Origin: Anaerolineales bacterium
Lineage (GTDB): Bacteria > Chloroflexota > Anaerolineae > Anaerolineales > E44-bin32
Direction: 5' to 3'
Assembly (NCBI GenBank): GCA_037382465.1
Contig: JARRPX010000004.1
Span: forward strand, 140,204-204,203
Length of the DNA stretch: 64,000 nt
Below the pieces are notes generated by a model. That model worked only from the letters and a program-made list of their open reading frames with translations, did not search any database and was not told the origin of the DNA. Below, one piece after another: positions 4,392-50,802 of the stretch. A program made the translations under genes and the position numbers. Position 1 is the stretch's first letter. Each line of letters begins with the position of its first letter.

Positions 4392-4628
4392 ATGACCAAA
4401 GTCAGCATCAAGTACTGCGCCGTTTGACACTACACGGATCGAGCCATCCGTGCGATGGCTGAAGTGCTGCAGAAATATGAAACAAGGATTGACGAGATCA
4501 CCCTTATCCCATCCGACGGCGGATGCTTCGAAGTCACGGTCGATGGCACCCTGGTGTACTCCAAACTCGCCACCGGACGTCACGTCGAATCGGGTGAGAC
4601 GGCGAATTACGTCGGAGACCACCTGTAG
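4392..4628 (+). CDS. Rdx/SelW-like selenoprotein (CxxU), in-frame TGA at 4425-4427 read as selenocysteine
   Basis: Absent from the ORF track. GGAGGA at 4382-4387, ATG at 4392. Reads MTKVSIKYCAV-U-HYTDRAIRAMAEVLQKYETRIDEITLIPSDGGCFEVTVDGTLVYSKLATGRH..., stop TAG 4626-4628. The YCxxU motif is at the N-terminus, and the ITLIPSxGGxFEVxVDG block matches the Rdx fold family. Confidence 0.7.
4433..4452 (+). promoter_or_regulatory. Candidate bacterial SECIS hairpin for the Rdx-like gene
   Basis: CACGGAT-cgagcc-ATCCGTG: 7-bp stem, 6-nt loop containing G. It starts 6 nt after TGA 4425-4427. Confidence 0.4.
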
Positions 4629-26133: not shown

Positions 26134-28269
26134 TCAACGCTCGATCCAGATCATGTAGTTCTGTGGCACATCGATCGGTGAAGGCACGTAGCCAAACACG
26201 TAAGCTTTCCAGACGCCATAAGAAGGTGAACTATGGCTGAGAACCAGGATGGGTGCCGCATCGAGCAGATATTGTTCGGACTGCCGGTACAATTCTAACC
26301 GAAGCTCCGGATTTTGTGCCGTCCGCGCCGCTTCGATCAGGCCATCATATTCAGGATCATTATAATATGCATGGTTTTGTGATGAGGCGCTGTGGAAGAG
26401 GACATCCAGGAAATTCTCCGGATCGGGATAATCCGCACACCAGCCCTCCAACAACAAATGGCCGTAATTTCCGGCATCCACCTGATCGTAATAACTCAGC
26501 CAATCGATCCCCTCGACCTGAATGTCGACATCCAGCACGTCTTTCCATGTGTCCACCAGGAATGCCGCCGCACTGGAATAGTAGCCGCTCGAGCTTCCCA
26601 GGGTCCAAATGATCTCAGGCGGTTCTGTTCCTGGCGCGTAATAATCCGATTCAGCGAGATAATCGCGCGCCAGTTCGGGATCGTAAATCGGGGGTCGGAC
26701 GTCTTCACTGACCCCCGGCATACCGGGCGGAAGCAGCCCGCGTCCCACAACCGCTTCTCCGTTGGTGAGCGCTTCGACGTAACGCTCGCGATCTACGGCG
26801 AGAACGAACGCCTTGCGCACGAGGGGATCGTCGAACGGAGGCAGGCTGGTGTTGAACGTCACGTAGCTCGTACATAAACCCGTCTCGGAGATCACCGTGC
26901 CGTAGAAGCCGTCCCGGGGATCTTCGGCGCGTTCAAGTTGATCGCGTGTGAGACCGGTGAAATCGACCTCCCCTGTTTGATACAGACTCTGGGTGTAGCC
27001 CGCGTAAATCAGATAGGCCACGAAATCCAGATGCGGCGCTTCTGCGGAATAAAACGGATTGCGCTCGAGAAGGAAGAACGTCTCTTCGAGATGCTGTACG
27101 TGCCGGAACGGGCCGGTTCCGTTCGGGTGATTGGCCCAATTCGGGAAACCGACTTGATAGCGATCGACCACCCAGGAGACTGGGTAGGTGAGTTTGGCTA
27201 AAAAATAGGGCTTCGGTCCATCGACACGGACTTCCAGGGTGTGCGCATCAATGACGCGGACGCCTTCGATCGAATCTGCCTCTCCCGCATGAAAATCCAG
27301 CAGCCCGACGATGTCTCCCATGTAAAGGGAAACCGTCTCCGAATTTGTTTCCGGGCGGGCGGCACGCTCCCAACTGAAGAGGACATCGTCCGCCGTAACG
27401 GGACGCCCATTGTGAAAGCGAGCCCGTGGATTCAAGTGAAACGTATACACCGTTCCGTCTTCATTGACGTCCCAACCCTGCGCCAATGCGGGTTTCACCT
27501 TCATCTGTGGATCGAGAACGACGAGGCCGCTGAAAATATCCCCGATCATTCCACTGCCCCCAAAATGGGTGAGTGCCGGATCGAGCGTCAACGGTTCACT
27601 GCCTGCAAGTACCAGGGCATTCTCGCGGGGAAAGTCACGCGGCATACCGGGCTCGAGACGGAAGCTTTTCAGCGTCGAAAGAAAGGCCGCCAGGAACGAA
27701 ACCGAATCTTCTTCAGGATACGTGGAGAGAAACATGTACGCAGCCGCGCTCGTCTCGACTCTGGCGACGGCCCAGCCCTCTATGCCGGATTCGGATCCCG
27801 GTCGAAGGCGACCGGCGCGGAACCCGCCGGACGGACCTGCATCCGTCTCGAAGCTGTCCTCGAACGTAGTTTCTCCGATTGCATCTTCCCCCAGCCAGAC
27901 CGCCAGAATTTCATCCAGCGCATTCGCCGGATCGATCGAAGGTCCCGGAATGGTGACCAGGATTCGAGCCCCATCGACAGGATCGACCATCGAACTCAAC
28001 GCAAAACCATCTCCCGGCTCATCCACTTCCCAATTCATGGGCGGTTCCAGGGAAAACATGGCTTCATCGTTGAAGTATCGAACCGGTTCGTAGTCCGTTG
28101 GCAAATCCGGATTCTCGTCCACCGGCGCGGTGGATGCGGAGACCGGCTGCGATGTTGACGAAGTGGCCGCTTCTTCAACGTCGCGCGCATTGCACGACGT
28201 CAGCCCGGCGAATCCGGCCAGCACGAGGGCGAGTGTGAATACTATTCTGGGTGGGAATCGATCAGTCAC
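26134..28269 (-). CDS. Family-5 (OppA/DppA-type) solute-binding lipoprotein with an extra N-terminal domain of about 230 aa
   Basis: Lipobox LAGFAGLTSC. SBP_bac_5 core (GWDVNEDGTVYTFHLNPRARFHNGRPVTADDVLFSWERA). GTG 28269 has GGAGGA 5 nt upstream and overlaps the preceding stop. No permease or ATPase genes are nearby. Confidence 0.8.
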   Translation of the reverse strand: MTDRFPPRIVFTLALVLAGFAGLTSCNARDVEEAATSSTSQPVSASTAPVDENPDLPTDYEPVRYFNDEAMFSLEPPMNWEVDEPGDGFALSSMVDPVDGARILVTIPGPSIDPANALDEILAVWLGEDAIGETTFEDSFETDAGPSGGFRAGRLRPGSESGIEGWAVARVETSAAAYMFLSTYPEEDSVSFLAAFLSTLKSFRLEPGMPRDFPRENALVLAGSEPLTLDPALTHFGGSGMIGDIFSGLVVLDPQMKVKPALAQGWDVNEDGTVYTFHLNPRARFHNGRPVTADDVLFSWERAARPETNSETVSLYMGDIVGLLDFHAGEADSIEGVRVIDAHTLEVRVDGPKPYFLAKLTYPVSWVVDRYQVGFPNWANHPNGTGPFRHVQHLEETFFLLERNPFYSAEAPHLDFVAYLIYAGYTQSLYQTGEVDFTGLTRDQLERAEDPRDGFYGTVISETGLCTSYVTFNTSLPPFDDPLVRKAFVLAVDRERYVEALTNGEAVVGRGLLPPGMPGVSEDVRPPIYDPELARDYLAESDYYAPGTEPPEIIWTLGSSSGYYSSAAAFLVDTWKDVLDVDIQVEGIDWLSYYDQVDAGNYGHLLLEGWCADYPDPENFLDVLFHSASSQNHAYYNDPEYDGLIEAARTAQNPELRLELYRQSEQYLLDAAPILVLSHSSPSYGVWKAYVFGYVPSPIDVPQNYMIWIER

Positions 28270-37737: not shown

Positions 37738-37813
37738 TGGTGGACCCAGTGGGATTCGAACCCACGACCTCCTCAATGCCATTGAGGCGCGCTCCCAACT
37801 GCGCCATGGGCCC
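37738..37813 (-). tRNA. tRNA-Ala (anticodon GGC), CCA encoded
   Basis: 76-nt cloverleaf parsed by hand: acceptor GGGCCCA/TGGGTCC with the G3:U70 Ala identity pair, D arm GCGC-AGTTGGGA-GCGC, anticodon arm CCTCA-ATGGCAT-TGAGG, T arm GTGGG-TTCGAAT-CCCAC, and ACCA end. Confidence 0.93.
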
Positions 37814-37818
37814 GGGAG

Positions 37819-37891
37819 TGGACCTGGCGGGATTCGAACCCGCGACCTCATCAGTGCGATTGATGCGCGCTCCCAACTGCGCTACAGGCCC
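37819..37891 (-). tRNA. tRNA-Ala (anticodon CGC), CCA not encoded
   Basis: 73-nt cloverleaf: acceptor GGGCCTG/CAGGTCC with G3:U70, the same D arm, anticodon arm CATCA-ATCGCAC-TGATG, T arm GCGGG-TTCGAAT-CCCGC, discriminator A followed by CTC. A 5-nt spacer separates it from the next tRNA. Confidence 0.9.
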
Positions 37892-37991: not shown

Positions 37992-39092
37992 ATGCATGCA
38001 GACCGCATCACCCGGCTGAAGCAGGTTATTAAGGACAGTGAACTGGATGCGCTGGCGCTCAACCCAGGCCCAACGCTTTCCTACCTCACGGGTCTTTCCT
38101 TCCATCTACTGGAACGGCCCATCCTGGCCCTCTTCAGCGCCGATGCCGATCCAACGCTCATCGTCCCAGATCTGGAACGCGGCAAAGCCGATTCCGTGGA
38201 CTTCGATCTGCAGCTTTTCAGCTACGATGAATCGGCCAGTTCGCGTGCAGAAACGTTCCAGAAAGCCTGCCAATCACTCAACAGTTATCGGGTGGGCGTG
38301 GAACCGCTGCGCATGCGCGTGATGGAGCTGCGTCTGCTGCAGGAACACTCGCGCCAGGCGACGTTCGTTTCCGGCGAGGTGATCCTCAATGAACTGCGCA
38401 TCATTAAAACGCCAGAAGAAATCGAGATCATGCGCAAGGCGGTCGTGGCGGCCGAGGAAGCGCTCGAAGCGATCATCCCGCTCATCCGCACCGGCATGAC
38501 CGAGCGCGATCTGGAAGCGGAACTCACCCTGCAGCTGCTGCGTGCCGGCTCGGAATCCGAATTCCCCTTCGATCCCATCGTGGCCGGCGGAGTCAACAGT
38601 GCCCTGCCCCACGCCACGCCCACAGAGCGAACGCTCCAGACGGGCGACCTGCTGATCCTCGACTGGGGTGCTCGGGTGAACGGCTACATCTCCGACATCA
38701 CACGCACGTTCGCGCTCGGCGAGATCGACGAGGAATTGAACACCATCTACGAAGTCGTCCGGGCCGCCAATAAAGCAGGCAGGGAGGCCGTGCGTCCGGG
38801 AGCACCATGCGGCGAAGTCGACCGGGCTGCACGCAGCGTCATCGAAGACGCCGGCTACGGCGCGTTTTTCATCCACCGCACCGGCCACGGCATCGGTCTG
38901 GAAGCGCACGAGCCTCCCTATATCCGGGAGGATAACGAGCGCATTCTGCAGCCGGGAATGACCTTCACCGTCGAACCCGGAATCTACCTTCCCGGTCGCG
39001 GCGGCGTGCGTATCGAGGACGACGTTCTGGTCACATCGGACGGCGTCGAGAGCCTGACGACGTATTCACGTAAACTGGAGACGATCTCATGA
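37992..39092 (+). CDS. M24 family Xaa-Pro aminopeptidase/dipeptidase
   Basis: Creatinase-like N-domain plus pita-bread fold with metal ligands (DWGARVNGYISDITRT, HRTGHGIGLEAHE, TVEPGIY, GGVRIED). Confidence 0.85.
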   Translation: MHADRITRLKQVIKDSELDALALNPGPTLSYLTGLSFHLLERPILALFSADADPTLIVPDLERGKADSVDFDLQLFSYDESASSRAETFQKACQSLNSYRVGVEPLRMRVMELRLLQEHSRQATFVSGEVILNELRIIKTPEEIEIMRKAVVAAEEALEAIIPLIRTGMTERDLEAELTLQLLRAGSESEFPFDPIVAGGVNSALPHATPTERTLQTGDLLILDWGARVNGYISDITRTFALGEIDEELNTIYEVVRAANKAGREAVRPGAPCGEVDRAARSVIEDAGYGAFFIHRTGHGIGLEAHEPPYIREDNERILQPGMTFTVEPGIYLPGRGGVRIEDDVLVTSDGVESLTTYSRKLETIS

Positions 39093-39862
39093 CACAAATC
39101 ATGAAGGGCGGCCAACCCTTCTTCCTGCCCGGTGGGAAGACCGGCTGTCTGCTACTGCATGGATTTACCGGCACACCCAACGAAATGCACTGGATGGGAG
39201 AGTATCTTAACGGCCGCGGCTTCACCGTTCTTGCGCCGCGCCTCTTCGCCCACGGCACACAGCTATCTGACATGTATCGCGCACGCTGGAAGGACTGGGT
39301 CGCGTCGGCAGAAGACGGTTATTACCTGCTTAAAGGGAGCTGCGAGAAGGTCGTCGTTGCCGGATTGTCGCTGGGAGGGTCATTATCACTCTATCTCGGC
39401 ACGGAACTTCCCGTTTGGGGCGTGATCGCCATGGCCGCGCCGTATGAAATCCATGATCCCACGGTCCGGCGGCTGCGGCCAGTATTGCCGCTCCTCAGCA
39501 CCATCTACAAATCCAGAACCAAAAAAGGCCCCTCCGGCATATTCGACCCGATGGCGGACAAACTGCACGTGGATTATGCAGGCTATCCCGTGCGCGGCGG
39601 ATACGAGCTTCAGGAATTTCTGGCGGAAATGCGCGGCAATCTACGCCGACTTCAGAAACCGCTCCTGCTGATCAATTCCAAGTTTGACGACACAGTAACC
39701 CCAGAAGATGCGCGGGCGATTTGCGATGCCGTACCCTCCACGGACAAGCAGATCCTGATGTTGGAAAAGGGCGGACATAACATCCCGCGCGATCTGGCAC
39801 GCCAGACGGCTTTCAAGGCCGCGGGAGATTTCATCCAGCGTGTGACGAGTGAACCCGGATGA
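39089..39862 (+). CDS. Alpha/beta hydrolase (carboxylesterase/lysophospholipase-like), paralogue 1
   Basis: CLLLHGFTGTP oxyanion region, nucleophile elbow GLSLGG, C-terminal GGHNI. The ATGA overlaps the upstream stop. Confidence 0.8.
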   Translation: MTQIMKGGQPFFLPGGKTGCLLLHGFTGTPNEMHWMGEYLNGRGFTVLAPRLFAHGTQLSDMYRARWKDWVASAEDGYYLLKGSCEKVVVAGLSLGGSLSLYLGTELPVWGVIAMAAPYEIHDPTVRRLRPVLPLLSTIYKSRTKKGPSGIFDPMADKLHVDYAGYPVRGGYELQEFLAEMRGNLRRLQKPLLLINSKFDDTVTPEDARAICDAVPSTDKQILMLEKGGHNIPRDLARQTAFKAAGDFIQRVTSEPG

Positions 39863-40641
39863 GCTGCGTCCAGGCCGGAGCGGAACCCTTCTTCATTCCC
39901 GCTGGAGAGACGGGATGCCTGCTAACTCACGGTTTCACCGCCTCACCGCAGGAAGTGCGTGAACTGGGCACACACCTGGCGCAGCATGGCTGCACCGTGC
40001 TGGGTGTACGTCTGTTCGCTCACGGTACAAAAATGGAGGACATGAACCGCGCCCGCTGGACGGACTGGCTCGGAAGTGTCGAAGACGGCTATTATTTACT
40101 CCGCAACTGCTGCAAACGCATCTTTTTCATCGGCTCATCCGTCGGCGGATCGCTCTCGCTGATCCTGGCAACCGAATTCCCGAACGCCGGAGTCGTGACC
40201 CTGGCCACGCCCTTCCGCCTGCCGCCCAACCGGCGCCTGGAACGTCTCAAGCCGTTCATGAAGCCGTTGAGCCACATGCTGCCCGCCATCGCCAAGGGAT
40301 CCCCGGACTGGCACGACCCCAAAGCCCAGGACGAGCGTGTGGCCTACTCGGGCTACCCGCTGCGGGCCATCCTCGAGTTGGAGCCGCTGCTGGCCGCCAT
40401 GCGGAGCGCGCTGCCGAAGATGCGCGTGCCGGCGCTCTTGATGCACTCGAAGAACGACCGTTTCATACCGCCCGATCACATGCAGCAGATCTACGAACAC
40501 CTGGGATCTTCCGACAAACGCATGGTCTGGGTCGAAGACAGCAGTCACGTGATCACCTGTGACGCCGAACGGACGGTGGTGTTTAAGAACGTGACCGCGT
40601 TCGTCCAGCGCATCGCCGCATCTAGCCCAGAAGGAGTCTGA
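39859..40641 (+). CDS. Alpha/beta hydrolase, paralogue 2 (tandem duplicate)
   Basis: Colinear with paralogue 1 (CLLTHGFTASP, RLFAHGT, GSSVGGS, SSHVI). The ATGA overlaps the upstream stop. Confidence 0.8.
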   Translation: MSCVQAGAEPFFIPAGETGCLLTHGFTASPQEVRELGTHLAQHGCTVLGVRLFAHGTKMEDMNRARWTDWLGSVEDGYYLLRNCCKRIFFIGSSVGGSLSLILATEFPNAGVVTLATPFRLPPNRRLERLKPFMKPLSHMLPAIAKGSPDWHDPKAQDERVAYSGYPLRAILELEPLLAAMRSALPKMRVPALLMHSKNDRFIPPDHMQQIYEHLGSSDKRMVWVEDSSHVITCDAERTVVFKNVTAFVQRIAASSPEGV

Positions 40642-42518: not shown

Positions 42519-44594
42519 CTAATCGCTTTCTTCTTTGCCGAGTTCCTTCTGGCGAGCGGCGATGATCTCCTCGGTGATGTGATGGGGGACGACTTCGTAA
42601 TGACTGAGCGATGTGGTGTAATATCCTCGCCCGCCGGTAAACGAACGCAGATCGGTCGTGTAGCGCTGGATTTCCGCCAGGGGAACTTTGGCCGTGACCA
42701 CACTGCGGCCGCGCTCCGTTTCCATCCCCTGGACGCGGGCCCGGCGGGTATTCAAATCTCCCAGCACGTCGCCCATGTTGCTCTCGGGCACGATCACGCG
42801 CACGTCCATGATCGGTTCGAGCAGCACGGGGGCGGCGTCCTTTATCGCCACTTTAAAGGCTTCGCGCCCGGCGATCACGAAGGCCACGGCCTTCGAATCG
42901 ACGGGATGCTCCTTGCCGTCCGTGATTGCCACCTTGACCTTCTCGACCGGATAGCCCGCAAGCACGCCCTGCTTCATCACACCGCGTACGCCCTTTTCGA
43001 TGGCGGGCATGAAACTGGAAGAAATCGCTCCACCGAAGACTTCGTTTACGAATTCGAAGTCTTCGTCCTCCAGGGGTTCGACGCGCATGTGCACTTCGGC
43101 GAACTGGCCGGCGCCGCCCGTCTGTTTCTTGTGACGATACTGTGAAGTGCCCACCTTCGTGATCGTTTCCCGATAGGGCACCTTGGGAATTTCGGTATCC
43201 AGACCGACTTGAAACTTCGATTCCGCCTTACGAATGGCGACGTCGATGTGCTGGTCTCCCATGCCCTGCAGGATGGTTTGATTGGTGCTGGATTCCTGGT
43301 ACCAGGACAGGGTTGGATCTTCTTCGCTCAGACGCGTCAACGTAGGGCTGATCTTGGTCGAATCGGCCTGCGTCTTCGGCGACACGGCGACCGCGTACAA
43401 CGCCGTAGGGTACTCGGGCTGCGGCAGCAGAAGGGGATGCCCTTTATCACCGAGCGTGTCGCCGGTTTCCGTTTCACCCAGCTTCGCCACCGTTCCGATG
43501 TCCCCGGCGTGGAGGCGATCGACGGGAATCTGCTCCTTGCCGCACATGACGTGCAGGCTTCCCAGCCGCTCATCTTCGTCGCGGCTGTGGTTGTACACCT
43601 TGCGATCGCTGTCCAGGAGTCCCGAGTACACCCGCATGTAGGTGAGTTTCCCGACGAAGGGATCGGCCGTCGTCTTCCATACGTAGACCGCCAGCGGTCC
43701 GTTGTCCGACGCCGATAACTCCTCCTCCCCGGAGGTGCCTTTGGCGACCACCGGCGCGACGTCCGCCGGCGAGGGGAACAATTCGATCATCGCTTCCAGC
43801 AGCGGCGCGGTTCCGATGTTTTCGGTTCCGGCAGCGACGAACACGGGCACGAAGCGGCCTGACTGCACGGCGCTGCGAAATCCTTTGGACACATCTTCCG
43901 CACTCAGTTCTGCACCGTCCAGATATTTCTCCAGTAAGGCGTCGTCTCCCTCGGCCGCAGCTTCGACCAGCGACGTGCGCGCCTCTTCGACGCTGTCCGC
44001 ATACTCGGCGGGAATGTCTTGCGCCTTGGTGCCATCTCCGGGGCGCGCCTTCATGCTGAAAAGATCGATCACACCCTCGAAATCCAGTTTTTCACCCAGA
44101 GGAAGTTGGACGGGAATGAAGGTAACATCGCTGGAGAGTTCCTGCACCGCCGCCAACGCCGCCTGGAAATTGGCGTTCTCGCGGTTCATCTTGCTGATCA
44201 CGACGAAGCGCGGCAGCTTGAACGTATCGCAGTAATCCCAGACCAGCTCGGTCCCGACCTCCACACCGGCGACCGAATCGACGACGACCACGGCGCCGTC
44301 CGCCACACGCAGCGCTGAAATGACTTCGCCGATGAAGTCGGTGTATCCGGGCGTGTCCAGTAGATTGACCTTGTTGTCTTTGTATTCAACCGGCAGAATG
44401 GACGTCGAAAGCGAGAGATTACGGCGAATCTCTTCCTCCTCGAAGTCGGAGACGGTATTGCCGTCTTCGACCCTGCCCATGCGGTTGATCACACCGGTCA
44501 GAAACAGCATCGCCTCGCCCAGGGAGGTCTTTCCTGCACCACCATGGGACACTAAGGCAACATTACGTATGAATTCCGTTGCGTATTCTTTCAT
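42519..44594 (-). CDS. Elongation factor G paralogue (EF-G2-like translational GTPase), not in a str operon
   Basis: G domain (HGGAGKTSLGEAMLF, DTPGYTDF, SKMNR) plus domains II-V. The P-loop context differs from canonical AGKTTTTE, and no rpsL/rpsG/tuf neighbours are present. Confidence 0.85.
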   Translation of the reverse strand: MKEYATEFIRNVALVSHGGAGKTSLGEAMLFLTGVINRMGRVEDGNTVSDFEEEEIRRNLSLSTSILPVEYKDNKVNLLDTPGYTDFIGEVISALRVADGAVVVVDSVAGVEVGTELVWDYCDTFKLPRFVVISKMNRENANFQAALAAVQELSSDVTFIPVQLPLGEKLDFEGVIDLFSMKARPGDGTKAQDIPAEYADSVEEARTSLVEAAAEGDDALLEKYLDGAELSAEDVSKGFRSAVQSGRFVPVFVAAGTENIGTAPLLEAMIELFPSPADVAPVVAKGTSGEEELSASDNGPLAVYVWKTTADPFVGKLTYMRVYSGLLDSDRKVYNHSRDEDERLGSLHVMCGKEQIPVDRLHAGDIGTVAKLGETETGDTLGDKGHPLLLPQPEYPTALYAVAVSPKTQADSTKISPTLTRLSEEDPTLSWYQESSTNQTILQGMGDQHIDVAIRKAESKFQVGLDTEIPKVPYRETITKVGTSQYRHKKQTGGAGQFAEVHMRVEPLEDEDFEFVNEVFGGAISSSFMPAIEKGVRGVMKQGVLAGYPVEKVKVAITDGKEHPVDSKAVAFVIAGREAFKVAIKDAAPVLLEPIMDVRVIVPESNMGDVLGDLNTRRARVQGMETERGRSVVTAKVPLAEIQRYTTDLRSFTGGRGYYTTSLSHYEVVPHHITEEIIAARQKELGKEESD

Positions 44595-44695: not shown

Positions 44696-45172
44696 ATGAA
44701 ATTTATCAACCAACATTCCTATTTCGTGTTCGCGGGCACGGTGCTGGTCGGCGCGGCGTTGATCCTCGGCGCCGGCGGCATGACCACTTCCCGCCTGCTC
44801 GTGCTGCTCGGGCTGGCGTTCGTGTTGGCGGCTGTGTATTTGATTTTCTACCCCGGCAGAGGTCCGGCTCAGCGCACCCAACGCGGGATCGGAAGCGGCA
44901 AACCGGTCCTGCTCGAATTCCAGAGCCGCTTTTGAATAGCCTGCATGGCCATGAAACCCATCGTGGATGGGATCGAAACCGAATTCCAGCAGGAGTTGGA
45001 CGTGATCCGTCTGGACGTCCAGGATCCTGCGTCTCGAGATTTCATGGAACGCTACGGCTTCGAGTACACGCCCACCTTCATTCTGTTCGACGGCGACGGA
45101 AACGAGCGCTGGCGGAAGCTCGGTGCGCTAAACAAGGCCGCCGTGCAAAGCGCGCTCATGGAATTAAAGTGA
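44696..45172 (+). CDS. Membrane-anchored thioredoxin-fold selenoprotein (UxxC), in-frame TGA at 44933-44935
   Basis: ORFs 44696..44935 and 44945..45172 share one frame and are joined by TGA-ATA-GCC-TGC. The result is GKPVLLEFQSRF-U-IAC-MAMKPIVDGIE...YTPTFILFD, i.e. the Trx WCxxC position with Sec as the N-terminal redox residue plus a cis-Pro TPT block. Two N-terminal TM helices. Confidence 0.7.
44957..44971 (+). promoter_or_regulatory. Candidate SECIS hairpin for the thioredoxin-like gene
   Basis: CCCATC-gtg-GATGGG: 6-bp stem, GUG loop, starting 21 nt after the TGA. The short loop makes this call weak. Confidence 0.3.
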
Positions 45173-45738
45173 TCCGCCAGGTCCTGTTCGAACTTTCGTA
45201 CCTGATCCGCCGTACACCCTGGGACACCGGAATCTCACCGCCGGAATTAATGGTCTTTCTCGGTTCCCATTCCCCCGGCCGCGCTCTCGATCTGGGCTGC
45301 GGCACCGGTACGAACGCCATCACCATGACGAAACACGGCTGGCAGGTCGTGGCAGTGGACATTTCGATACTCGCCATCCGGCGCGCGCGCCAGAAAGCAC
45401 ACGAAGCAAGTGCAGCAATCGATTTTCGCCAGGGCGACGTGACTGCAATGCGGAATCTCGGTGACCCTTTCGATCTCGCGCTCGACATCGGCTGCTTTCA
45501 CAGTCTGAGCGGAGATGCGAGAAAACGGTACGCCGCGAACCTCAAGCGCTGGCTGAATCCGGAAGGTTCGTTTCTGCTCTACGCCTGGCTGGATGATGAA
45601 GATGAAACCCAGGACGATCCGCTAAACGCAGCCGAAATCGAAACGCTGTTCTCCCCGGAATTGGAATGCCTCGACGCGACCCTCGGAACCGAACGGCAAA
45701 GGACTTCGGCCTGGTTCACCTTTCGACGGAAGCCGTGA
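45169..45738 (+). CDS. Class I SAM-dependent methyltransferase (TehB/TPMT-like)
   Basis: GTG 45169 overlaps the Trx-like stop (GTGA). TPWDTG...ALDLGCGTGTNAITMTKHGWQVVAVDIS motif I and post-I, followed by DLALDIGCFH. Only the last 190 aa of listed ORF 44653..45738 are used. Confidence 0.8.
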   Translation: MIRQVLFELSYLIRRTPWDTGISPPELMVFLGSHSPGRALDLGCGTGTNAITMTKHGWQVVAVDISILAIRRARQKAHEASAAIDFRQGDVTAMRNLGDPFDLALDIGCFHSLSGDARKRYAANLKRWLNPEGSFLLYAWLDDEDETQDDPLNAAEIETLFSPELECLDATLGTERQRTSAWFTFRRKP

Positions 45739-46676
45739 TGGCGCGCGTTTTGATGCTCTTCCTCGATGGCGTCGGGCTGGGCGCCGACGACCCGAAACGC
45801 AACCCGTTTGCCGTCGCACGCATGCCGGCATTGATCGGCTTGATGGAAGGCCGCAGATTACTGGCCGGTTCGGCACCGTTTGTCGGCGAACGAGCGTCGC
45901 TTCTCGCCGTAGACGCGTGCATGGGTGTCGCGGGGCTGCCGCAGTCCGCCACCGGCCAGGCCAGCCTGCTCACGGGCCGCAACGTATCTGCGGAAATCGG
46001 CATGCATTATGGGCCCAAACCGAATCCCGCCATCCGGGACATCCTCACAGAGGACAATTTGTTTGCCCTGGTCCGTCGAAAAGGCGAACCTGCGGCGTTG
46101 ATCAACGCCTATCCGCCTGGCTATTTCGAAGCCATAAATTCCGGCCGCCGCCTGTATTCCGCGATTCCGTTCGCCGTCACTGCGGCCGGCTTCGAACTGA
46201 TGACCGACGAGGATATGCGCCAGGGACGGGCGATGTCCGCCGATTTCACCGGCGCCGGCTGGGTCGCACGGCCCGATTTCCCTCCGGCGCCCGTCTATAC
46301 GCCCGCTGAAGCCGGAGCATTGCTAGCCGCCATTTCCCAAACTTATGCACTCTCCTGGTTCGACTATTGGCCCACGGATTACGCCGGCCACCGTTCCTCA
46401 CTCGACGGGGCCGTCGAACTGCTGGAATCCGTCGACGCCGTTTTGGACGGCCTCTTCTCCGCCTGGAAGGATCGAACGGATTTGATCGTGCTCACCTCCG
46501 ACCACGGCAACCTGGAAGACCTCAGTGTGCGTGGGCATACCCGCAATCCTGTCCCGGCGCTTATCGTCGGACCTGCGGATCTGCGCATCCAATTCGCTGC
46601 TGGTTTGCACGATCTGACGGATTTCGCGGACGCCATCACGACCACGATTTTCAAGCGCCAACAAGAAGCCCCTTAG
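45738..46676 (+). CDS. Alkaline-phosphatase-superfamily metalloenzyme (phosphomutase/phosphodiesterase-like)
   Basis: ATG overlaps the methyltransferase stop (TGATG). LMLFLDGVGLG N-terminal metal site, the QSATGQASLLTG nucleophile region, and TSDHGN near the C-terminus. Confidence 0.65.
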   Translation: MARVLMLFLDGVGLGADDPKRNPFAVARMPALIGLMEGRRLLAGSAPFVGERASLLAVDACMGVAGLPQSATGQASLLTGRNVSAEIGMHYGPKPNPAIRDILTEDNLFALVRRKGEPAALINAYPPGYFEAINSGRRLYSAIPFAVTAAGFELMTDEDMRQGRAMSADFTGAGWVARPDFPPAPVYTPAEAGALLAAISQTYALSWFDYWPTDYAGHRSSLDGAVELLESVDAVLDGLFSAWKDRTDLIVLTSDHGNLEDLSVRGHTRNPVPALIVGPADLRIQFAAGLHDLTDFADAITTTIFKRQQEAP

Positions 46677-46747: not shown

Positions 46748-48904
46748 ATGAAACGCTACGAGATAGGCACGAAAGACATGCAGCCAGAGAGCAAACCAGA
46801 GACATCCAACGCGGGCATCCAGACCCTGGAAATCCCCATTCGAGGCATGGACTGCGTCGATTGCACCAGGCACGTCGAGCGGGCCATATCCGATCTCTCC
46901 GGCGTTGAAAGCGTGGAAGTGCTTCTGGGGGCCGAACGCGCCGTCGTTCGCCTGGATCCCGGCCGGGTCGGCATGCCCGACCTGCGCAAGGCCGTCGAAA
47001 AGGCCGGCTACCGCGTTCCCGCTCCGGAAGTCACGACGGCGCAGCGAAATGCAGCGCAGTACGCCCGCCGGATATTGACGCTGCTCTTCGGCGTCTTTGC
47101 CATACTGTTTCTCGTCGTCGTTCTGGGCGAGTGGTTCGGGCTGCTCGAATCAGTCAGCCGCTCGATCCCCTGGCAGCTCGGTCTGGTCGTCATTCTGATC
47201 GGAGGCTATCCGGTCTTCCTCAACGTGCTTCGGGCTACGTGGCGCAGGGAAATCATCGCGCACACGTTGATGACCGTGGGAGTCATCGCCGCCGTCATCG
47301 TCGGGGAATGGGCTACCGCCGCGGTCGTCGTTTTCTTCATGCGCGTCGGGGATTTCGTCGAACGCTACACCTCCGAGCGCGCACGCCATGCGATCCGGGA
47401 CCTTGCCAGTCTGTCCCCCCAGAAAGCGCGTCTCCTGCGCCAGGGAGAAGAAGTGGAAGTGCCGATCGAAGAAGTCAAAGCCGGAGACGTGGTCGTCGTG
47501 CGGCCGGGTGAGAAAATCCCCGTGGACGGGGAAGTCGTCGCCGGCCAGGCGACCGTCAACCAGGCAACCATCACCGGCGAATCGATGCCCGTGGAGGCGC
47601 AAGCCGGCTCCCAGGTTTATGCCGCCACGATCGCCACGTTGGGAAATTTGCGCATACGCGCCCAGCGCATCGGATCCGATTCGACCTTCGGTCGCGTGAT
47701 CAGGCTGGTCGAGACCGCGGAGAGTCAGCGCGGCAGGGTTCAACGCGCTGCGGATCGTTTCTCCAGCTATTTCCTGCCCCTCGTTGCAGGAATCGCTGCG
47801 CTTACTTTCATCATCGGAAGAAACCCCCTGGCCACGGCCGCCGTGCTGGTCGTCGCCTGTTCCTGTTCCTTCGCCCTGGCGACACCGATCGCCATGCTGG
47901 CGTCCATCGGCGCCAGCGCCCGCCGCGGCCTGTTGATCAAAGGCGGCAAACACCTCGAAGCGCTGGCCCGAGCCCAGACCGTACTCATCGATAAAACCGG
48001 AACGCTCACCCTCGGCGAACCAGAGATCACGGACGTCATACCGCTGGGGAAGATCTCTGCGGACAAGCTGCTGAGCCTCGCTGCCAGCGCCGAACGCTAT
48101 TCAGAGCACCCGCTTGCGGAGGCCGTCCGCCTGGCCGCATTCCACCGCGGCTGTGCCGTGCAAGAACCCCAGGACTTCGAAGCTACTCCGGGGATCGGCG
48201 TGCTCGCCCGGATCGATTCCCGGCAGATCGGTGTGGGAAACCGCCGCTCGCTGCCCGATGCCGCCCTGCCCGACTCCTTTCTGGAGAAAGAGAAGCAAGG
48301 CAAGACGCTGCTCGCCGTCACGAGAGACGGCGAACTGATCGGCGCCCTGGCAGCAGCGGACACCGTACGCGATGAGGTGCCGCAGGCGATAAGCCAACTC
48401 AAGCGGCTCGGCATCGATGAGCTCGTTTTGATATCCGGAGACAATGTCCATGCGACGGCCCACCTGGCCGACAGGCTGGGCGTCGATTACCGCGCCGAGC
48501 TGCTTCCCGAGGACAAGATCGAGATCGTCAAGCGCTATCAGGAACAAGGGCGCACAGTCGTCATGGTCGGGGACGGCGTCAACGATGCGCCTTCCCTTGC
48601 ACAAGCCGACGTCGGCATCGCCATGGGTACGGTCGGAAGCGACGTGGCCATCGAAGCCGCCCACGTCGCCCTGCTGCGTGAAGACTGGACGCTCGTCCCA
48701 CTGCTTTTCCGCATCGCCCGGCGGACGATGTCCGTGGTCAAGCTGAACATCGGCTTCACGTTGATCTACAATCTCTTCGGTTTGTCCCTCGCCGCGCTGG
48801 GAATCCTTCCACCCATACTCGCAGCCGCGGCGCAGTCCATCCCCGACCTGGGCATACTGGCCAATTCCTCCCGGCTGCTGCAGCAATCCAAGCTGGACCA
48901 TTGA
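46748..48904 (+). CDS. Heavy-metal-translocating P1B-type ATPase with an atypical CSC membrane motif
   Basis: N-terminal HMA domain (GMDCVDC), DKTGTLT, SEHPLA (HP), GDGVNDAP. The TM motif reads ACSCSFALATP (TGT-TCC-TGT at 47858-47866) where CPC is usual. Confidence 0.9.
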   Translation: MKRYEIGTKDMQPESKPETSNAGIQTLEIPIRGMDCVDCTRHVERAISDLSGVESVEVLLGAERAVVRLDPGRVGMPDLRKAVEKAGYRVPAPEVTTAQRNAAQYARRILTLLFGVFAILFLVVVLGEWFGLLESVSRSIPWQLGLVVILIGGYPVFLNVLRATWRREIIAHTLMTVGVIAAVIVGEWATAAVVVFFMRVGDFVERYTSERARHAIRDLASLSPQKARLLRQGEEVEVPIEEVKAGDVVVVRPGEKIPVDGEVVAGQATVNQATITGESMPVEAQAGSQVYAATIATLGNLRIRAQRIGSDSTFGRVIRLVETAESQRGRVQRAADRFSSYFLPLVAGIAALTFIIGRNPLATAAVLVVACSCSFALATPIAMLASIGASARRGLLIKGGKHLEALARAQTVLIDKTGTLTLGEPEITDVIPLGKISADKLLSLAASAERYSEHPLAEAVRLAAFHRGCAVQEPQDFEATPGIGVLARIDSRQIGVGNRRSLPDAALPDSFLEKEKQGKTLLAVTRDGELIGALAAADTVRDEVPQAISQLKRLGIDELVLISGDNVHATAHLADRLGVDYRAELLPEDKIEIVKRYQEQGRTVVMVGDGVNDAPSLAQADVGIAMGTVGSDVAIEAAHVALLREDWTLVPLLFRIARRTMSVVKLNIGFTLIYNLFGLSLAALGILPPILAAAAQSIPDLGILANSSRLLQQSKLDH

Positions 48905-49842: not shown

Positions 49843-50802
49843 GTGCGCCGAAGAAGATTGCGACTTTTCTCGAGAAAAAGCGGTTTGAAGGTTCTCCTGG
49901 CCACCGCCATGACCGTGCTCGCAGGCGCAGGTGCGGCCGCGCTTTTGTATTTCGCTCCGCGATTGCAGTTCGAAATTGCCCTTTATGCCACCGAACTGTC
50001 CGCGGCCAATTTCGTGCCCACAGCGGCGCTCACCACCGCAGCCGTCGGTATTGCCCGCGAAGCGGAACGAACGACGGAAAGCGCCTCCCTGCAGCCGACG
50101 AGAAGTCCGAGCAGCACGTCGACGATGAGACATTCGCCGACCAGCAGTTGCACAGTTTCCCCGACTCCGTCTATAACGCCTACCTGCTCACTAACGCCAA
50201 CCGAATACATCCCCATATATCCGACAAGCACGAAAACGCCGCCGAGCATCCCGACGAGCACACGCACTAGGACCCCGACCGCCGCGCTGCCTCCTGCTGC
50301 AACGCCGACTCCGACGCCGGAATCCACCGCCCCGGCTGCATCACAGCAGCCCGCAACTGCAACGCCCACATCCCCGACAGCTTCCTGTTCGCTGAGCGGG
50401 AACGGCGCATACGAGGCAACGCTGCTGAGTCTCATCAACCAGGCGCGCAGCGAACACGGACTCGGTTCCCTGACCCTTAAAAGTCCACTGACCGCCGCAG
50501 CCCGGATTCACAGCGCAGACATGGCTTGCAACAACTTCATCTCTCACACCGGATCGGACGGCTCGCGGCCGGCCGACCGAGTAGCAGCGCAAGGTTATTC
50601 CTTTACGTGGATCGGGGAGAACATCTACGCCGGCGGTGGTTCCTACAACGCTCCCGAACAGGCCTTCGAGTGGTGGATGAACAGCACGCCCCATCGAGAG
50701 AACATTCTGGGCGCCAACTATCAATCGATCGGCATCGGCTATCAATACAACCCGGATGGCCAATACGGCGGTTGTTTCACGCTCGTCTTCACCCGACCGT
50801 GA
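49843..50802 (+). CDS. Membrane-anchored CAP/SCP (YkwD-like) domain protein with a Pro/Thr-rich linker
   Basis: GTG start. N-terminal TM, about 110 aa of T/P/S-rich linker, then a C-terminal CAP domain (LINQARSEHGL..L....LTAAARIHS.DM....F.SHTGSDGS...R......GENI...W.NS..HRENIL). Confidence 0.75.
   Translation: MRRRRLRLFSRKSGLKVLLATAMTVLAGAGAAALLYFAPRLQFEIALYATELSAANFVPTAALTTAAVGIAREAERTTESASLQPTRSPSSTSTMRHSPTSSCTVSPTPSITPTCSLTPTEYIPIYPTSTKTPPSIPTSTRTRTPTAALPPAATPTPTPESTAPAASQQPATATPTSPTASCSLSGNGAYEATLLSLINQARSEHGLGSLTLKSPLTAAARIHSADMACNNFISHTGSDGSRPADRVAAQGYSFTWIGENIYAGGGSYNAPEQAFEWWMNSTPHRENILGANYQSIGIGYQYNPDGQYGGCFTLVFTRP

What the first reader, a model, noticed from the sequence alone, without database searches (positions are those of the whole stretch)
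44696..45172. Membrane-anchored thioredoxin-fold protein with a UxxC motif: a second probable selenoprotein split into two ORFs
Track ORFs 44696..44935 and 44945..45172 are in the same frame and are separated only by TGA-ATA-GCC-TGC.
- The joined product reads ...GSGKPVLLEFQSRF-U-I-A-C-MAMKPIVDGIETEF...GFEYTPTFILFDGDG...
- This aligns position for position with the thioredoxin pattern (VLVDFWAxWCxxC...PT.xLF).
- Sec takes the place of the N-terminal, nucleophilic Cys.
- The first ORF alone would be two TM helices ending exactly one residue before the active site. The second alone would be a Trx fold lacking its first redox residue. Neither makes sense as a separate gene.
- A small hairpin CCCAUC-GUG-GAUGGG lies 21 nt downstream of the TGA.
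- Two Sec candidates in redox motifs within 64 kb reinforce each other.
Basis: partly seen in the sequence, partly recalled or inferred. Interest (0 to 1): 0.7.

Follow-up and report, generated by a model that had tools for sequence, protein, structure and literature searches.

The report
Membrane-anchored thioredoxin-like selenoprotein gene
The two short ORFs are one gene for a membrane-anchored thioredoxin-like protein whose in-frame TGA is very probably read as selenocysteine, the founding example of an Anaerolineae-specific selenoprotein family that public annotation splits, truncates or mistranslates.

Summary
Window 44696-45172 is a single 158-codon gene: two transmembrane helices, then a thioredoxin fold whose nucleophilic Cys position is the TGA at 44933-44935 (motif U-I-A-C).

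- **Reproducibility:** the TGA recurs in three independent assemblies of the same organism.
- **Family:** 84 family loci (the window, L002-L004 and 80 metagenome loci) split into 75 TGA and 9 Cys. All 23 Anaerolineae-type genome loci have TGA. The family appears confined to Anaerolineae (Chloroflexota).
- **Hairpin:** CCCAUC-GUG-GAUGGG lies 21 nt after the TGA. It meets all four published bacterial SECIS criteria and shows compensatory changes at two base pairs with no mismatch in 58 distinct sequences. It is degraded in most Cys forms.
- **Evolution:** Sec is ancestral, with at least 6 Sec→Cys replacements.
- **Second site:** a canonical SelW/T/H-type CxxU selenoprotein gene lies at 4392-4628, and its UGA is followed by the same hairpin core.
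- **Code:** TGA is otherwise this genome's commonest stop.
- **Context:** a TPMT/TehB-like methyltransferase follows in 62 of 64 loci.

The Sec machinery genes could not be examined, and membrane topology and substrate remain unresolved. UxxC thioredoxin-fold selenoproteins are a known kind, so this is a new, uncurated member.

The parts
44696..45172 (+). Complete selenoprotein gene: 158 sense codons plus a TGA stop. It has a 2-TM anchor and a thioredoxin-fold domain with active site U80-I-A-C83.
   Evidence: Single frame. PF00085 scores 37.2 bits across the TGA. The N-terminus M-x-F-I-N-Q-x-S and the C-terminus are conserved in homologues.
44720..44776 (+). Transmembrane helix 1 (about residues 9-27).
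   Evidence: Hydropathy and family alignment. The AF2 model of homologue P0003 has a helix at 2-26.
44795..44851 (+). Transmembrane helix 2 (about residues 34-52).
   Evidence: Hydropathy and family alignment. The AF2 model of homologue P0003 has a helix at 33-50.
44897..45157 (+). Thioredoxin-fold domain (residues 68-154), including the conserved cis-Pro motif YTPTF (Pro codon at 45071-45073).
   Evidence: Pfam PF00085 and PF13098. PDB thioredoxin alignment. Positions at least 90% conserved.
44933..44935 (+). In-frame UGA, the predicted selenocysteine codon (residue 80), at the position of the nucleophilic Cys of CxxC.
   Evidence: TGA in 75 and Cys in 9 of 84 family loci; TGA in all 23 Anaerolineae-type genome loci. 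Aligned to the first Cys of CGPC.
44942..44944 (+). Resolving Cys codon (C83) of the UxxC motif.
   Evidence: Invariant in the family, with synonymous TGC (58) and TGT (6) variation in Sec forms.
44957..44971 (+). Predicted bacterial SECIS hairpin. The stem is 44957-44962 paired with 44966-44971, and the apical loop GUG is at 44963-44965. It lies 21 nt after the UGA, with 27 nt between the UGA and the loop.
   Evidence: It meets the 4 bSECIS criteria. Covariation shows CG49/UA9 and AU35/GC21/GU2 with no mismatch, 88.8% of cells paired against at most 46.6% for slid registers, and 0 of 500 shuffles reaching the score. A CM trained without the window scores it 41.4 bits, E 7.6e-12. It is degraded in Cys forms.
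45169..45738 (+). TPMT/TehB-like SAM-dependent methyltransferase (189 aa). Its GTG start overlaps the selenoprotein stop (GTGA), so it is a probable operon partner.
   Evidence: PF05724 TPMT 54.5 bits (cut-off 26) and PF03848 TehB 33.6 bits. It is immediately downstream in 62 of 64 loci with room.
45738..46676 (+). Third gene of the cluster: a 'Metalloenzyme' (alkaline-phosphatase superfamily, PF01676) protein of 312 aa. Its start overlaps the methyltransferase stop.
   Evidence: PF01676 74 bits. Present in 24 of 32 loci with room.
42519..44594 (-). Divergently transcribed EF-G paralogue (691 aa). It is a conserved neighbour and is not SelB.
   Evidence: NF009381 elongation factor G 895 bits; selB model only 28.5 bits against a cut-off of 242. 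Upstream in 53 of 55 loci with room.
4392..4628 (+). Second selenoprotein gene of the window: SelW/T/H (Rdx) family with a CxxU motif. The UGA is at 4425-4427 and is followed by the hairpin AGCCAUC-CGUGC-GAUGGCU at 4442-4460.
   Evidence: Pfam Rdx 72.5 bits (cut-off 22.6) and TIGR02174 CXXU_selWTH 57.2 bits (cut-off 34.2). Hairpin. The shared motif occurs only at the two sites, with 0.01 expected. The sequence is identical in a second MAG.

Best explanation
Window 44696-45172 is one gene encoding a 158-residue selenoprotein.

**Recoding (inferred from sequence).** During translation the UGA at 44933-44935 is not read as stop. The hairpin CCCAUC-GUG-GAUGGG, 21 nt downstream and inside the coding sequence, acts as a bacterial SECIS. 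It would recruit SelB-GTP-Sec-tRNA(Sec), and selenocysteine is inserted as residue 80.

**Product.** The protein has two N-terminal transmembrane helices and a minimal thioredoxin fold. Its active site is U80-I-A-C83, and the conserved cis-Pro lies in YTPTF.

**Chemistry (by analogy with thioredoxins; established knowledge, not tested here).** The selenolate of U80 attacks a substrate disulfide or a chalcogen-sulfur bond. This gives a mixed selenenylsulfide that C83 resolves, and an unidentified reductant regenerates the enzyme.

**Operon (inferred).** The gene is translationally coupled to a TPMT/TehB-family methyltransferase and usually also to an alkaline-phosphatase-superfamily metalloenzyme. 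The three probably act in one pathway. My most likely guess, held at low confidence, is reduction followed by methylation of a small thiol, selenium or tellurium compound at the membrane.

**Shown and inferred.** Shown: the gene structure, the family-wide TGA/Cys alternation, the covarying hairpin and the conserved neighbourhood. Inferred: actual Sec insertion, the catalytic chemistry, the partner relationship and the substrate.
For: - **One gene.** The Pfam Thioredoxin alignment spans the TGA and passes the cut-off only for the joined product. The PDB alignment puts the TGA on the first Cys of CGPC.
- **Real TGA.** It is reproduced in three independent assemblies of the same organism.
- **Conserved recoding site.** The codon is TGA in 75 and Cys in 9 of 84 family loci, down to about 38% identity. 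All 23 Anaerolineae-type genome loci have TGA, including a subfamily about 35% identical.
- **Translation continues past the TGA.** The resolving Cys is invariant with TGC/TGT synonymous variation. Downstream Trx motifs are at least 90% conserved.
- **SECIS criteria.** The loop is GUG, the stem is 6 bp, the UGA-to-loop spacing is 27 nt and the energy is -7.9 kcal/mol. This meets all four criteria quoted in PMC13188914.
- **SECIS covariation.** Two pairs covary with no mismatch in 58 distinct sequences. One links the third position of a Pro codon to the first position of a Gly/Arg codon. The other links the first position of an Ile/Val codon to the third position of an Asp codon. Protein constraints do not explain this.
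- **SECIS controls.** Slid registers pair at most 46.6% of cells, against 88.8% observed. RNAalifold finds the same core unaided. A CM trained without the window scores the window site E 7.6e-12.
- **The hairpin tracks the codon.** Mean core mismatches are 0.34 in Sec forms and 2.2 in Cys forms (Fisher p 1.6e-4).
- **Sec is ancestral.** At least 6 Sec→Cys changes are needed, and two Cys forms keep 'fossil' hairpins.
- **Same organism, second site.** A canonical CxxU SelW/T/H gene has an in-frame TGA and the same CCAUC..GUG..GAUGG core. That motif occurs only at these two places in 64 kb, with 0.01 expected.
- **Standard code.** TGA is the ordinary stop of 22 of 41 large ORFs, including this gene's own stop.
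- **Phylum.** Chloroflexi are on record as having selenoproteins (PMC1794560).
- **Operon.** The methyltransferase is downstream in 62 of 64 loci, often overlapping the stop.
Against: - selA, selB, selD and tRNA-Sec were not found in the window or in about 1 Mb of related loci. The rest of the genome could not be searched, so the machinery is inferred and not shown.
- The hairpin is small, and the MFE fold of the window's 60-86 nt context prefers a competing hairpin (z -1.35 and -1.39).
- The peptide encoded by the hairpin (KP[IV]VDxxE) corresponds to a conserved thioredoxin helix, so part of the sequence conservation is protein-level.
- The family-trained CM did not recover the SelW-like site on the + strand within the E≤10 list; the only overlapping hit was on the minus strand, 7.7 bits, E about 8. 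The shared motif was defined after I had seen both sites.
- One near-identical MAG (GCA_037382445.1) has a clean 153-nt in-frame deletion that removes the Sec codon and the hairpin. The gene may therefore be dispensable, or that assembly is wrong.
- The functional link to the methyltransferase rests on synteny within one class of bacteria.
Confidence: 0.88

Rival explanations
1. Pseudogene: a thioredoxin-like gene recently inactivated by a TGC→TGA nonsense mutation, with the two ORFs as its remnants.
For: TGA is one substitution from TGC. One near-identical MAG carries a 153-nt deletion in this gene, which could be read as decay.
Against: The TGA is conserved in 75 of 84 family loci and in all 23 genome loci, across 35-84% protein identity, with intact frames and conserved Trx motifs downstream. 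Parsimony places Sec at the root. A covarying hairpin follows the codon.
Confidence: 0.01
2. Two genuinely separate genes: a 79-aa two-helix membrane peptide, and a 75-aa truncated Trx-like protein started at the ATG at 44945 or at the loop GTG.
For: Gene callers annotate it this way (79 aa plus 75 aa in L005 and L008). An ATG lies 9 nt after the TGA in the window.
Against: Many family members have no ATG between the TGA and the hairpin, for example L027 and L056. The codons between the TGA and any internal start encode an invariant Cys with synonymous variation. Nine homologues are single ORFs with Cys at the site. Only the joined product passes the Pfam cut-off.
Confidence: 0.03
3. UGA is read through without selenocysteine. 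One version is hairpin-stimulated near-cognate read-through inserting Trp or Cys. The other is a genome-wide reassignment of UGA, as the JGI gene caller assumed when it wrote W at this site.
For: The Sec machinery was not observed. JGI translated the orthologue with TGA read as W.
Against: TGA is the commonest ordinary stop in the window (22 of 41 large ORFs), and it terminates this very gene. The JGI read-through produces a nonsense C-terminal extension. The site is the catalytic Cys position of a redox motif and alternates only with Cys, which is the classic Sec signature. The hairpin fits the bSECIS model. A canonical SelW-like CxxU gene in the same window shows the same arrangement.
Confidence: 0.06
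4. Sequencing or assembly error: the true codon is TGC or TGG.
Against: The same TGA appears in independent assemblies from different samples and centres (L005, L008, L009) and in about 100 diverged loci.
Confidence: 0.005

Closest known systems
Sec-containing thioredoxins and 'thiol:disulfide interchange protein' selenoproteins (Pfam PF00085 and PF13098, UxxC motif), as listed in prokaryotic selenoproteome surveys (PMC1088965, PMC13188914, PMC9312934)
   Same: Thioredoxin fold. Sec replaces the N-terminal nucleophilic Cys of CxxC. Cys-containing homologues exist. An intragenic bacterial SECIS hairpin with a G-containing apical loop lies just downstream of the UGA.
   Different: It has a two-helix N-terminal membrane anchor and a distinctive active-site context, LLEFQSxY-U-xxC. 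It is restricted to Anaerolineae. It has conserved operon partners: a TPMT/TehB-like methyltransferase and a PF01676 metalloenzyme. It scores far below the thioredoxin equivalog model (45.5 against 96.8 bits) and matches no curated selenoprotein model in NCBIfam. Neither review mentions Chloroflexi for such a family.
Membrane-anchored extracytoplasmic thiol-disulfide oxidoreductases (ResA, CcmG/DsbE, TlpA and the DsbD C-terminal domain)
   Same: A Trx-fold redox domain tethered to the membrane. DsbD C-terminal domains are among the PDB sequence matches (about 30 bits).
   Different: Those proteins have one N-terminal anchor or signal peptide (or belong to an 8-TM protein) and use CxxC. This one has two TM helices, Sec, and an ambiguous topology. 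The best PDB matches are soluble thioredoxins, not TlpA- or ResA-type proteins.
Bacterial SECIS elements (the E. coli fdhF type, and the general bSECIS model of Zhang and Gladyshev as summarised in PMC13188914)
   Same: A stem-loop inside the ORF, 16-37 nt from the UGA to a small apical loop that begins with G followed by U. The energy is at or below -7.5 kcal/mol.
   Different: It is very short, with a 6-bp core stem and a 3-nt GUG loop (or a 5-nt C-GUG-C loop in a subfamily and in the SelW-like gene). No SelB binding has been shown. No Rfam family matches.
Bacterial thiopurine methyltransferase (Tpm) and TehB, which methylate selenium and tellurium compounds (PMC10128142, citing Ranjard et al. 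2002 and 2003)
   Same: The conserved downstream gene belongs to Pfam TPMT (54.5 bits, cut-off 26) and also hits TehB.
   Different: It is below every NCBIfam TehB equivalog cut-off. No activity is known. The known tpm and tehB genes are not described as coupled to a Trx-like selenoprotein.

Membership tests
Bacterial selenoprotein gene (UGA recoded through an intragenic SECIS) | In-frame UGA at a position occupied by Cys in homologues, with coding conservation on both sides | tested here: met
   TGA in 75 and Cys in 9 of 84 family loci. The Trx alignment spans the site. Downstream motifs are at least 90% conserved. The resolving Cys varies synonymously.
Bacterial selenoprotein gene (UGA recoded through an intragenic SECIS) | Stem-loop meeting the bSECIS model: loop of 3-9 nt, upper stem of 4-16 bp, G in the first two loop positions, 16-37 nt from the UGA to the loop, MFE ≤ -7.5 kcal/mol (PMC13188914) | tested here: met
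   Loop GUG, 6-bp stem, 27-nt spacing, -7.9 kcal/mol.
Bacterial selenoprotein gene (UGA recoded through an intragenic SECIS) | The structure is supported by compensatory substitutions and is lost when Sec is replaced by Cys | tested here: met
   Pairs CG49/UA9 and AU35/GC21/GU2 with no mismatch; 0 of 500 shuffles; slid registers at most 46.6%. Core mismatches are 0.34 in Sec forms and 2.2 in Cys forms, p 1.6e-4.
Bacterial selenoprotein gene (UGA recoded through an intragenic SECIS) | The genome encodes selA, selB, selD and tRNA-Sec | not testable with these tools
Indirect support: a canonical SelW/T/H CxxU gene with TGA lies in the same window, and Chloroflexi are known to have selenoproteins.
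Bacterial selenoprotein gene (UGA recoded through an intragenic SECIS) | Selenium demonstrated in the protein (75Se labelling or mass spectrometry) | not testable with these tools
   This is an experimental test.
Thioredoxin fold (Pfam PF00085 / PF13098) | Profile score above the gathering cut-off | tested here: met
   PF00085 37.2 bits (cut-off 23.5) and PF13098 36.0 bits (cut-off 27) for the joined product.
Thioredoxin fold (Pfam PF00085 / PF13098) | CxxC-type motif at the start of helix 1, and a conserved cis-proline loop | tested here: met
   UIAC aligns with CGPC. P126 in YTPTF is at least 90% conserved.
Canonical thioredoxin TrxA/TrxC (NCBIfam TIGR01068, NF006898, NF008229) | Score above the equivalog cut-off | tested here: not met
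   45.5 against 96.8, 34.4 against 138, and 24.4 against 125 bits. It is thioredoxin-like and not a TrxA orthologue.
Curated Trx-like selenoprotein families in NCBIfam (for example SaoT NF040730, HUIPC NF047660, VPGUxxT NF041383, TsoB NF045694) | Match to the family model above its cut-off | tested here: not met
   A scan of all NCBIfam models listed only TsoB, at 18.2 bits against a cut-off of 805. The others did not appear.
SelT/SelW/SelH (Rdx) family, for the second site at 4392-4628 | Profile match above the cut-off, with U at the CxxU position | tested here: met
   PF10262 72.5 bits (cut-off 22.6) and TIGR02174 57.2 bits (cut-off 34.2). The TGA is at the U of C-A-V-U.
TPMT / TehB methyltransferases, for the downstream gene at 45169-45738 | Pfam TPMT above the cut-off; TehB equivalog above the cut-off | tested here: inconclusive
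   PF05724 scores 54.5 bits (cut-off 26), so that criterion is met. The TehB equivalogs score 34-38 bits against cut-offs of 218-303, so that criterion is not met. It is a family-level member only, and its activity is unknown.

The most novel reading that the evidence does not exclude
The conserved three-gene cassette is a dedicated membrane-associated chalcogen-handling pathway in Anaerolineae. The cassette comprises the membrane-anchored Sec-thioredoxin, the TPMT/TehB-like methyltransferase and the alkaline-phosphatase-superfamily metalloenzyme. In this reading the selenoprotein reduces selenium or tellurium (or sulfur) adducts, and the methyltransferase converts the product to volatile methylated species. 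A selenoprotein would then be used to manage selenium or tellurium itself.
Probability: 0.15. Interest if true: 0.65.

Novelty: new member of a known kind. Interest (0 to 1): 0.47.

Why it matters
It adds a well-supported selenoprotein family to Chloroflexota, a phylum for which few selenoproteins are recorded. About 100 loci are involved, Sec is ancestral, and the family's SECIS is supported by covariation.

No database inspected here annotates it correctly. Gene callers split it into 79-aa and 75-aa ORFs or leave it uncalled. JGI translated the TGA as Trp and ran through the true stop. The only NCBI-named copy found here is a deletion variant. No NCBIfam model exists for it.

A curated model would correct these annotations. 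It would also give a compact SECIS (CCCAUC-GUG-GAUGGG) for defining SelB specificity in Anaerolineae.

The tight coupling to a TPMT/TehB-like methyltransferase gives a testable lead on function. The repeated Sec→Cys replacements, two of them with 'fossil' hairpins, offer a natural series for studying Sec/Cys exchange.

Tried and rejected
- **Minus-strand TGA near 26136** (730 and 601 codons either side, context IER*TCGC). I considered it as a second selenoprotein. It is only a family-5 solute-binding protein gene ending at the TGA, followed in the same frame by a separate dynamin-like GTPase gene.
- **Rfam gathering scan of the window.** It found only two tRNA-Ala genes and no SECIS family.
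- **MFE folding of the 60-86 nt after the TGA in the window.** It does not pick the conserved hairpin and is not significantly stable (z -1.35 and -1.39). Single-sequence folding is uninformative here; comparative analysis was needed.
- **Structure prediction.** The single-sequence AF2 model of Cys homologue P0003 was poor (pLDDT 50), so I did no fold search.
- **Covariance model trained on Trx-family hairpins only.** It recovered the window's Trx site (E 7.6e-12) but not the SelW-like site on the + strand; the only overlapping hit was on the minus strand, 7.7 bits, E about 8. The two sites share a core motif but not a family-specific profile.
- **Search for Sec machinery.** I ran Pfam scans of about 45 window ORFs, ARAGORN, and tblastn with E. 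coli SelA, SelB and SelD over about 1 Mb of held DNA. I also looked up contigs extending past the window ends. None of these found sel genes, and none is informative about the rest of the genome.
- **Upstream GTPase as SelB.** Rejected. It is an EF-G paralogue (895 bits on the EF-G model, against 28.5 bits on selB).
- **Topology by the positive-inside rule.** The family-wide bias places the TM1-TM2 loop inside and the Trx domain outside. The window protein has the opposite charge distribution. The question is unresolved.
- **First, over-strict regexes.** They missed some N-termini and loci, so I repeated the searches with looser patterns and tblastn.
Full report
**1. The observation**

The sequence is as described.
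- ORF 44696-44935 (79 aa) and ORF 44945-45172 (75 aa) share a frame and are separated only by TGA ATA GCC TGC.
- The N-terminal part has two hydrophobic helices, about residues 9-27 and 34-52. The AF2 model of a homologue has helices at 2-26 and 33-50.
- With U written as C, the joined 158-aa product scores 37.2 bits on Pfam Thioredoxin (cut-off 23.5) over residues 68-154, an alignment that runs across the TGA. Neither half alone passes any cut-off.
- A PDB sequence search with the natural Cys homologue aligns PVLLEFQSPYCIAC with PVLVDFWAPWCGPC of thioredoxin 2 (7d6l). The TGA therefore sits at the nucleophilic first Cys of the CxxC motif.
- The hairpin CCCAUC-GUG-GAUGGG occupies 44957-44971, 21 nt after the TGA.

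**2. It is not an artefact, a pseudogene or two genes**
- A protein search found only three relatives, but they were informative. P0003 is an uninterrupted 161-aa protein with C-I-A-C.
- P0002 was listed with 'W-I-A-C'. Its DNA (L002, L003) has an in-frame TGA at that codon. The JGI caller had read TGA as Trp and had also run through the true stop.
- Near-identical DNA from three independent assemblies (ENA ERZ27284291, JGI 3300057030 and 3300057003) keeps the TGA and the hairpin.
- A metagenome scan with the family alignment found 210 relatives, of which 80 loci were kept. Together with the window and L002-L004 this gives 84 family loci. The homologous codon is TGA in 75 of them and TGC or TGT in 9.
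- A scan of one genome per GTDB species found the family essentially only in Anaerolineae/Chloroflexota MAGs. All 23 such loci have TGA, including a subfamily about 35% identical with the motif LLEFFAFW-U-PTC.
- The resolving Cys three codons after the TGA is invariant and uses both TGC (58) and TGT (6). The cis-Pro motif YTPTF and other Trx positions downstream are at least 90% conserved. The region after the TGA is therefore translated in the same frame.
- Many members have no ATG between the TGA and the hairpin.
- TGA is also the ordinary stop of 22 of 41 large ORFs in the window, and of this gene itself, so the genome is not globally recoded.

**3. The hairpin behaves as a SECIS**

*Codon-level conservation.* Between the window and L002 (44% protein identity, lower GC) the seven codons AAA CCC ATC GTG GAT GGG ATC are identical at every base. 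Third positions differ freely elsewhere. The Cys-type locus L004 differs here at both the nucleotide and the protein level.

*Formal pair test.* I aligned 58 distinct Sec-type sequences without gaps (A2) and tested the helix.

| Measure | Result |
|---|---|
| Cells paired, observed register | 88.8% |
| Cells paired, best slid register | 46.6% |
| Shuffles reaching the covariation score | 0 of 500 |
| Stem pair, columns 36-46 | C-G 49, U-A 9, no mismatch |
| Stem pair, columns 37-45 | A-U 35, G-C 21, G-U 2, no mismatch |

*Why this is RNA-level selection.* These covariations link a synonymous site to a non-synonymous one. One links the third position of a Pro codon to the first position of a Gly/Arg codon. 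The other links the first position of an Ile/Val codon to the third position of an Asp codon. Protein constraints do not explain that.

*Independent checks.*
- RNAalifold, unaided, centres on the same helix.
- The divergent subfamily keeps GCCCGU-CGUGC-ACGGGC at the same spacing.
- A covariance model trained on 42 family hairpins without the window scores the window site at 41.4 bits, E 7.6e-12.

*Published criteria.* The bSECIS criteria are a 3-9 nt loop, a 4-16 bp stem, a G in the first two loop positions (usually G[G|U]), 16-37 nt from the UGA to the loop, and MFE ≤ -7.5 kcal/mol (PMC13188914). The window hairpin has loop GUG, 6 bp, 27 nt and -7.9 kcal/mol, so all four are met.

*The hairpin tracks the codon.* Sec forms average 0.34 mismatches in the 6-bp core, and 2 of 64 have two or more. 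Cys forms average 2.2, and 5 of 9 have two or more (Fisher p 1.6e-4). Two Cys forms (L047, L065) keep an intact 'fossil' hairpin. L047 is 80% identical to a Sec form.

*Ancestry.* Parsimony on an NJ tree puts Sec at the root and needs at least 6 Sec→Cys replacements.

**4. Does the organism decode Sec?**

I could not see the machinery.
- The window contains no tRNA-Sec and no SelA, SelB or SelD domains in about 45 scanned ORFs.
- None turned up in about 1 Mb of related loci or just beyond the right end of the window.
- The upstream GTPase is an EF-G paralogue and not SelB.

The indirect evidence is good.
At 4392-4628 the reading MTKVSIKYCAV-TGA-HYTDRA... scores 72.5 bits on Pfam Rdx and 57.2 bits on TIGR02174 'CXXU_selWTH' (cut-off 34.2), with the TGA at the U. 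The sequence is identical in a second NCBI MAG.
- Its UGA is followed by AGCCAUC-CGUGC-GAUGGCU.
- The core CCATC-N0-1-GTG-N0-1-GATGG occurs exactly twice in the 64 kb, at these two sites, where 0.01 is expected.
- I defined that motif after seeing both sites, and the family-trained CM did not recover the SelW-like site. I therefore treat this as supportive and not as proof.
- Chloroflexi are listed among phyla with selenoproteins (PMC1794560).

**5. Context and likely function**
- A TPMT/TehB-like SAM methyltransferase (PF05724, 54.5 bits) starts at the GTG that overlaps the selenoprotein's stop. It is immediately downstream in 62 of 64 loci with room.
- A PF01676 'Metalloenzyme' gene follows in 24 of 32 loci with room.
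- A divergent EF-G paralogue lies upstream in 53 of 55 loci with room.
- Bacterial TPMT methylates selenite to dimethyl(di)selenide and confers tellurite resistance (PMC10128142, citing Ranjard 2002 and 2003).
- I infer that the selenoprotein is a membrane-tethered UxxC oxidoreductase acting with this methyltransferase. Chalcogen reduction and methylation is the most attractive specific guess, held at low confidence.
- Topology is unresolved. Family-wide charge bias puts the TM1-TM2 loop inside and so the Trx domain outside. The window protein has four K/R after TM2, which suggests the opposite.

**6. Comparison with known families and novelty**
- UxxC thioredoxin-fold selenoproteins with Cys homologues and intragenic SECIS elements are the commonest kind of prokaryotic selenoprotein (PMC1088965, PMC13188914).
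- This protein is not a TrxA equivalog (45.5 against 96.8 bits), and it matches none of NCBIfam's curated selenoprotein models.
- The two reviews I searched do not mention Chloroflexi or a membrane-anchored Trx-like family.
- I therefore class it as a new, uncurated member of a known kind. Its distinguishing features are the 2-TM anchor, the LLEFQSxY-U-xxC signature, its restriction to Anaerolineae and its conserved methyltransferase partner.

**7. Verdict**

My confidence that this is a genuine Sec-encoding gene is about 0.88, limited mainly by the unobserved Sec machinery. Interest is moderate. It is a clean discovery that corrects annotation and gives a functional lead, but the mechanism itself holds no surprise.

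Noticed in passing
window 4392-4628 (+): This is a canonical SelW/T/H (Rdx) family selenoprotein gene with a CxxU motif. The in-frame TGA is at 4425-4427, and the hairpin AGCCAUC-CGUGC-GAUGGCU is at 4442-4460. Gene callers left it uncalled in the matching NCBI MAG contig (L130 has no gene between 1761 and 2377).
   Followed up: yes
L001 1049-1372 (NCBI GCA_037382445.1, JARRPW010000009.1), corresponding to window 44865-45017: A MAG otherwise 99.8-100% identical has a clean 153-nt in-frame deletion flanked by a GTCC microhomology. The deletion removes the Sec codon, the UxxC motif and the hairpin. The resulting 107-aa ORF is the only copy NCBI names ('thioredoxin family protein'). It is either a real loss-of-function variant or an assembly artefact; I could not tell which.
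   Followed up: partly
L002 148-744 and L003 130-726 (JGI 3300068486 and 3300068092): The JGI gene call for the orthologue (P0002, 198 aa) translates TGA as Trp. It writes W at the Sec position and reads through the true TGA stop into a spurious 27-residue tail. This suggests these contigs were called under a TGA-sense genetic code.
   Followed up: yes
window 42519-44594 (-): A stand-alone EF-G paralogue (NF009381, 895 bits), not in a str operon, is divergently transcribed from the selenoprotein gene. It keeps this position in 53 of 55 related loci. This may be plain synteny within Anaerolineae; I did not examine any functional link to recoding.
   Followed up: partly
window 46748-48904 (+): A heavy-metal P-type ATPase (TIGR01525, 581 bits) with an N-terminal HMA domain (GMDCVDC) lies directly after the three-gene cassette in the window. 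It is present in only 3 of the related loci, so it is not part of the conserved cluster.
   Followed up: partly
L047 and L065 (Cys-type metagenome loci): Two Cys-containing homologues retain a perfect hairpin (CCUGUC-GUA-GACAGG and GCCGGUC-GUG-GACCGGC) at the SECIS position. They are apparently 'fossil' SECIS elements left by recent Sec→Cys conversion.
   Followed up: partly
L109 and L113 (genome contigs): Family members lie on contigs binned as Methanosarcinales and Hydrothermarchaeota archaea. L109 is identical around the site to Anaerolineales loci, so it is probably mis-binned. L113 is a Cys form.
   Followed up: no
window 37738-37891 (-): Two tRNA-Ala genes (anticodons GGC and CGC) lie in tandem, 4 nt apart.
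   Followed up: no
window 39089-40641 (+): Two adjacent paralogous alpha/beta-hydrolase (Hydrolase_4) genes of 257 and 260 aa have overlapping stop and start codons, an apparent tandem duplication.
   Followed up: no
window 49843-50802, compared with L005 6234-7053 and L132 9839-10658: The CAP-domain protein gene is 319 aa in the window and in L001. In other near-identical assemblies it is a 93-aa CAP ORF plus an opposite-strand 150-aa ORF, which is strain-level structural variation.
   Followed up: no
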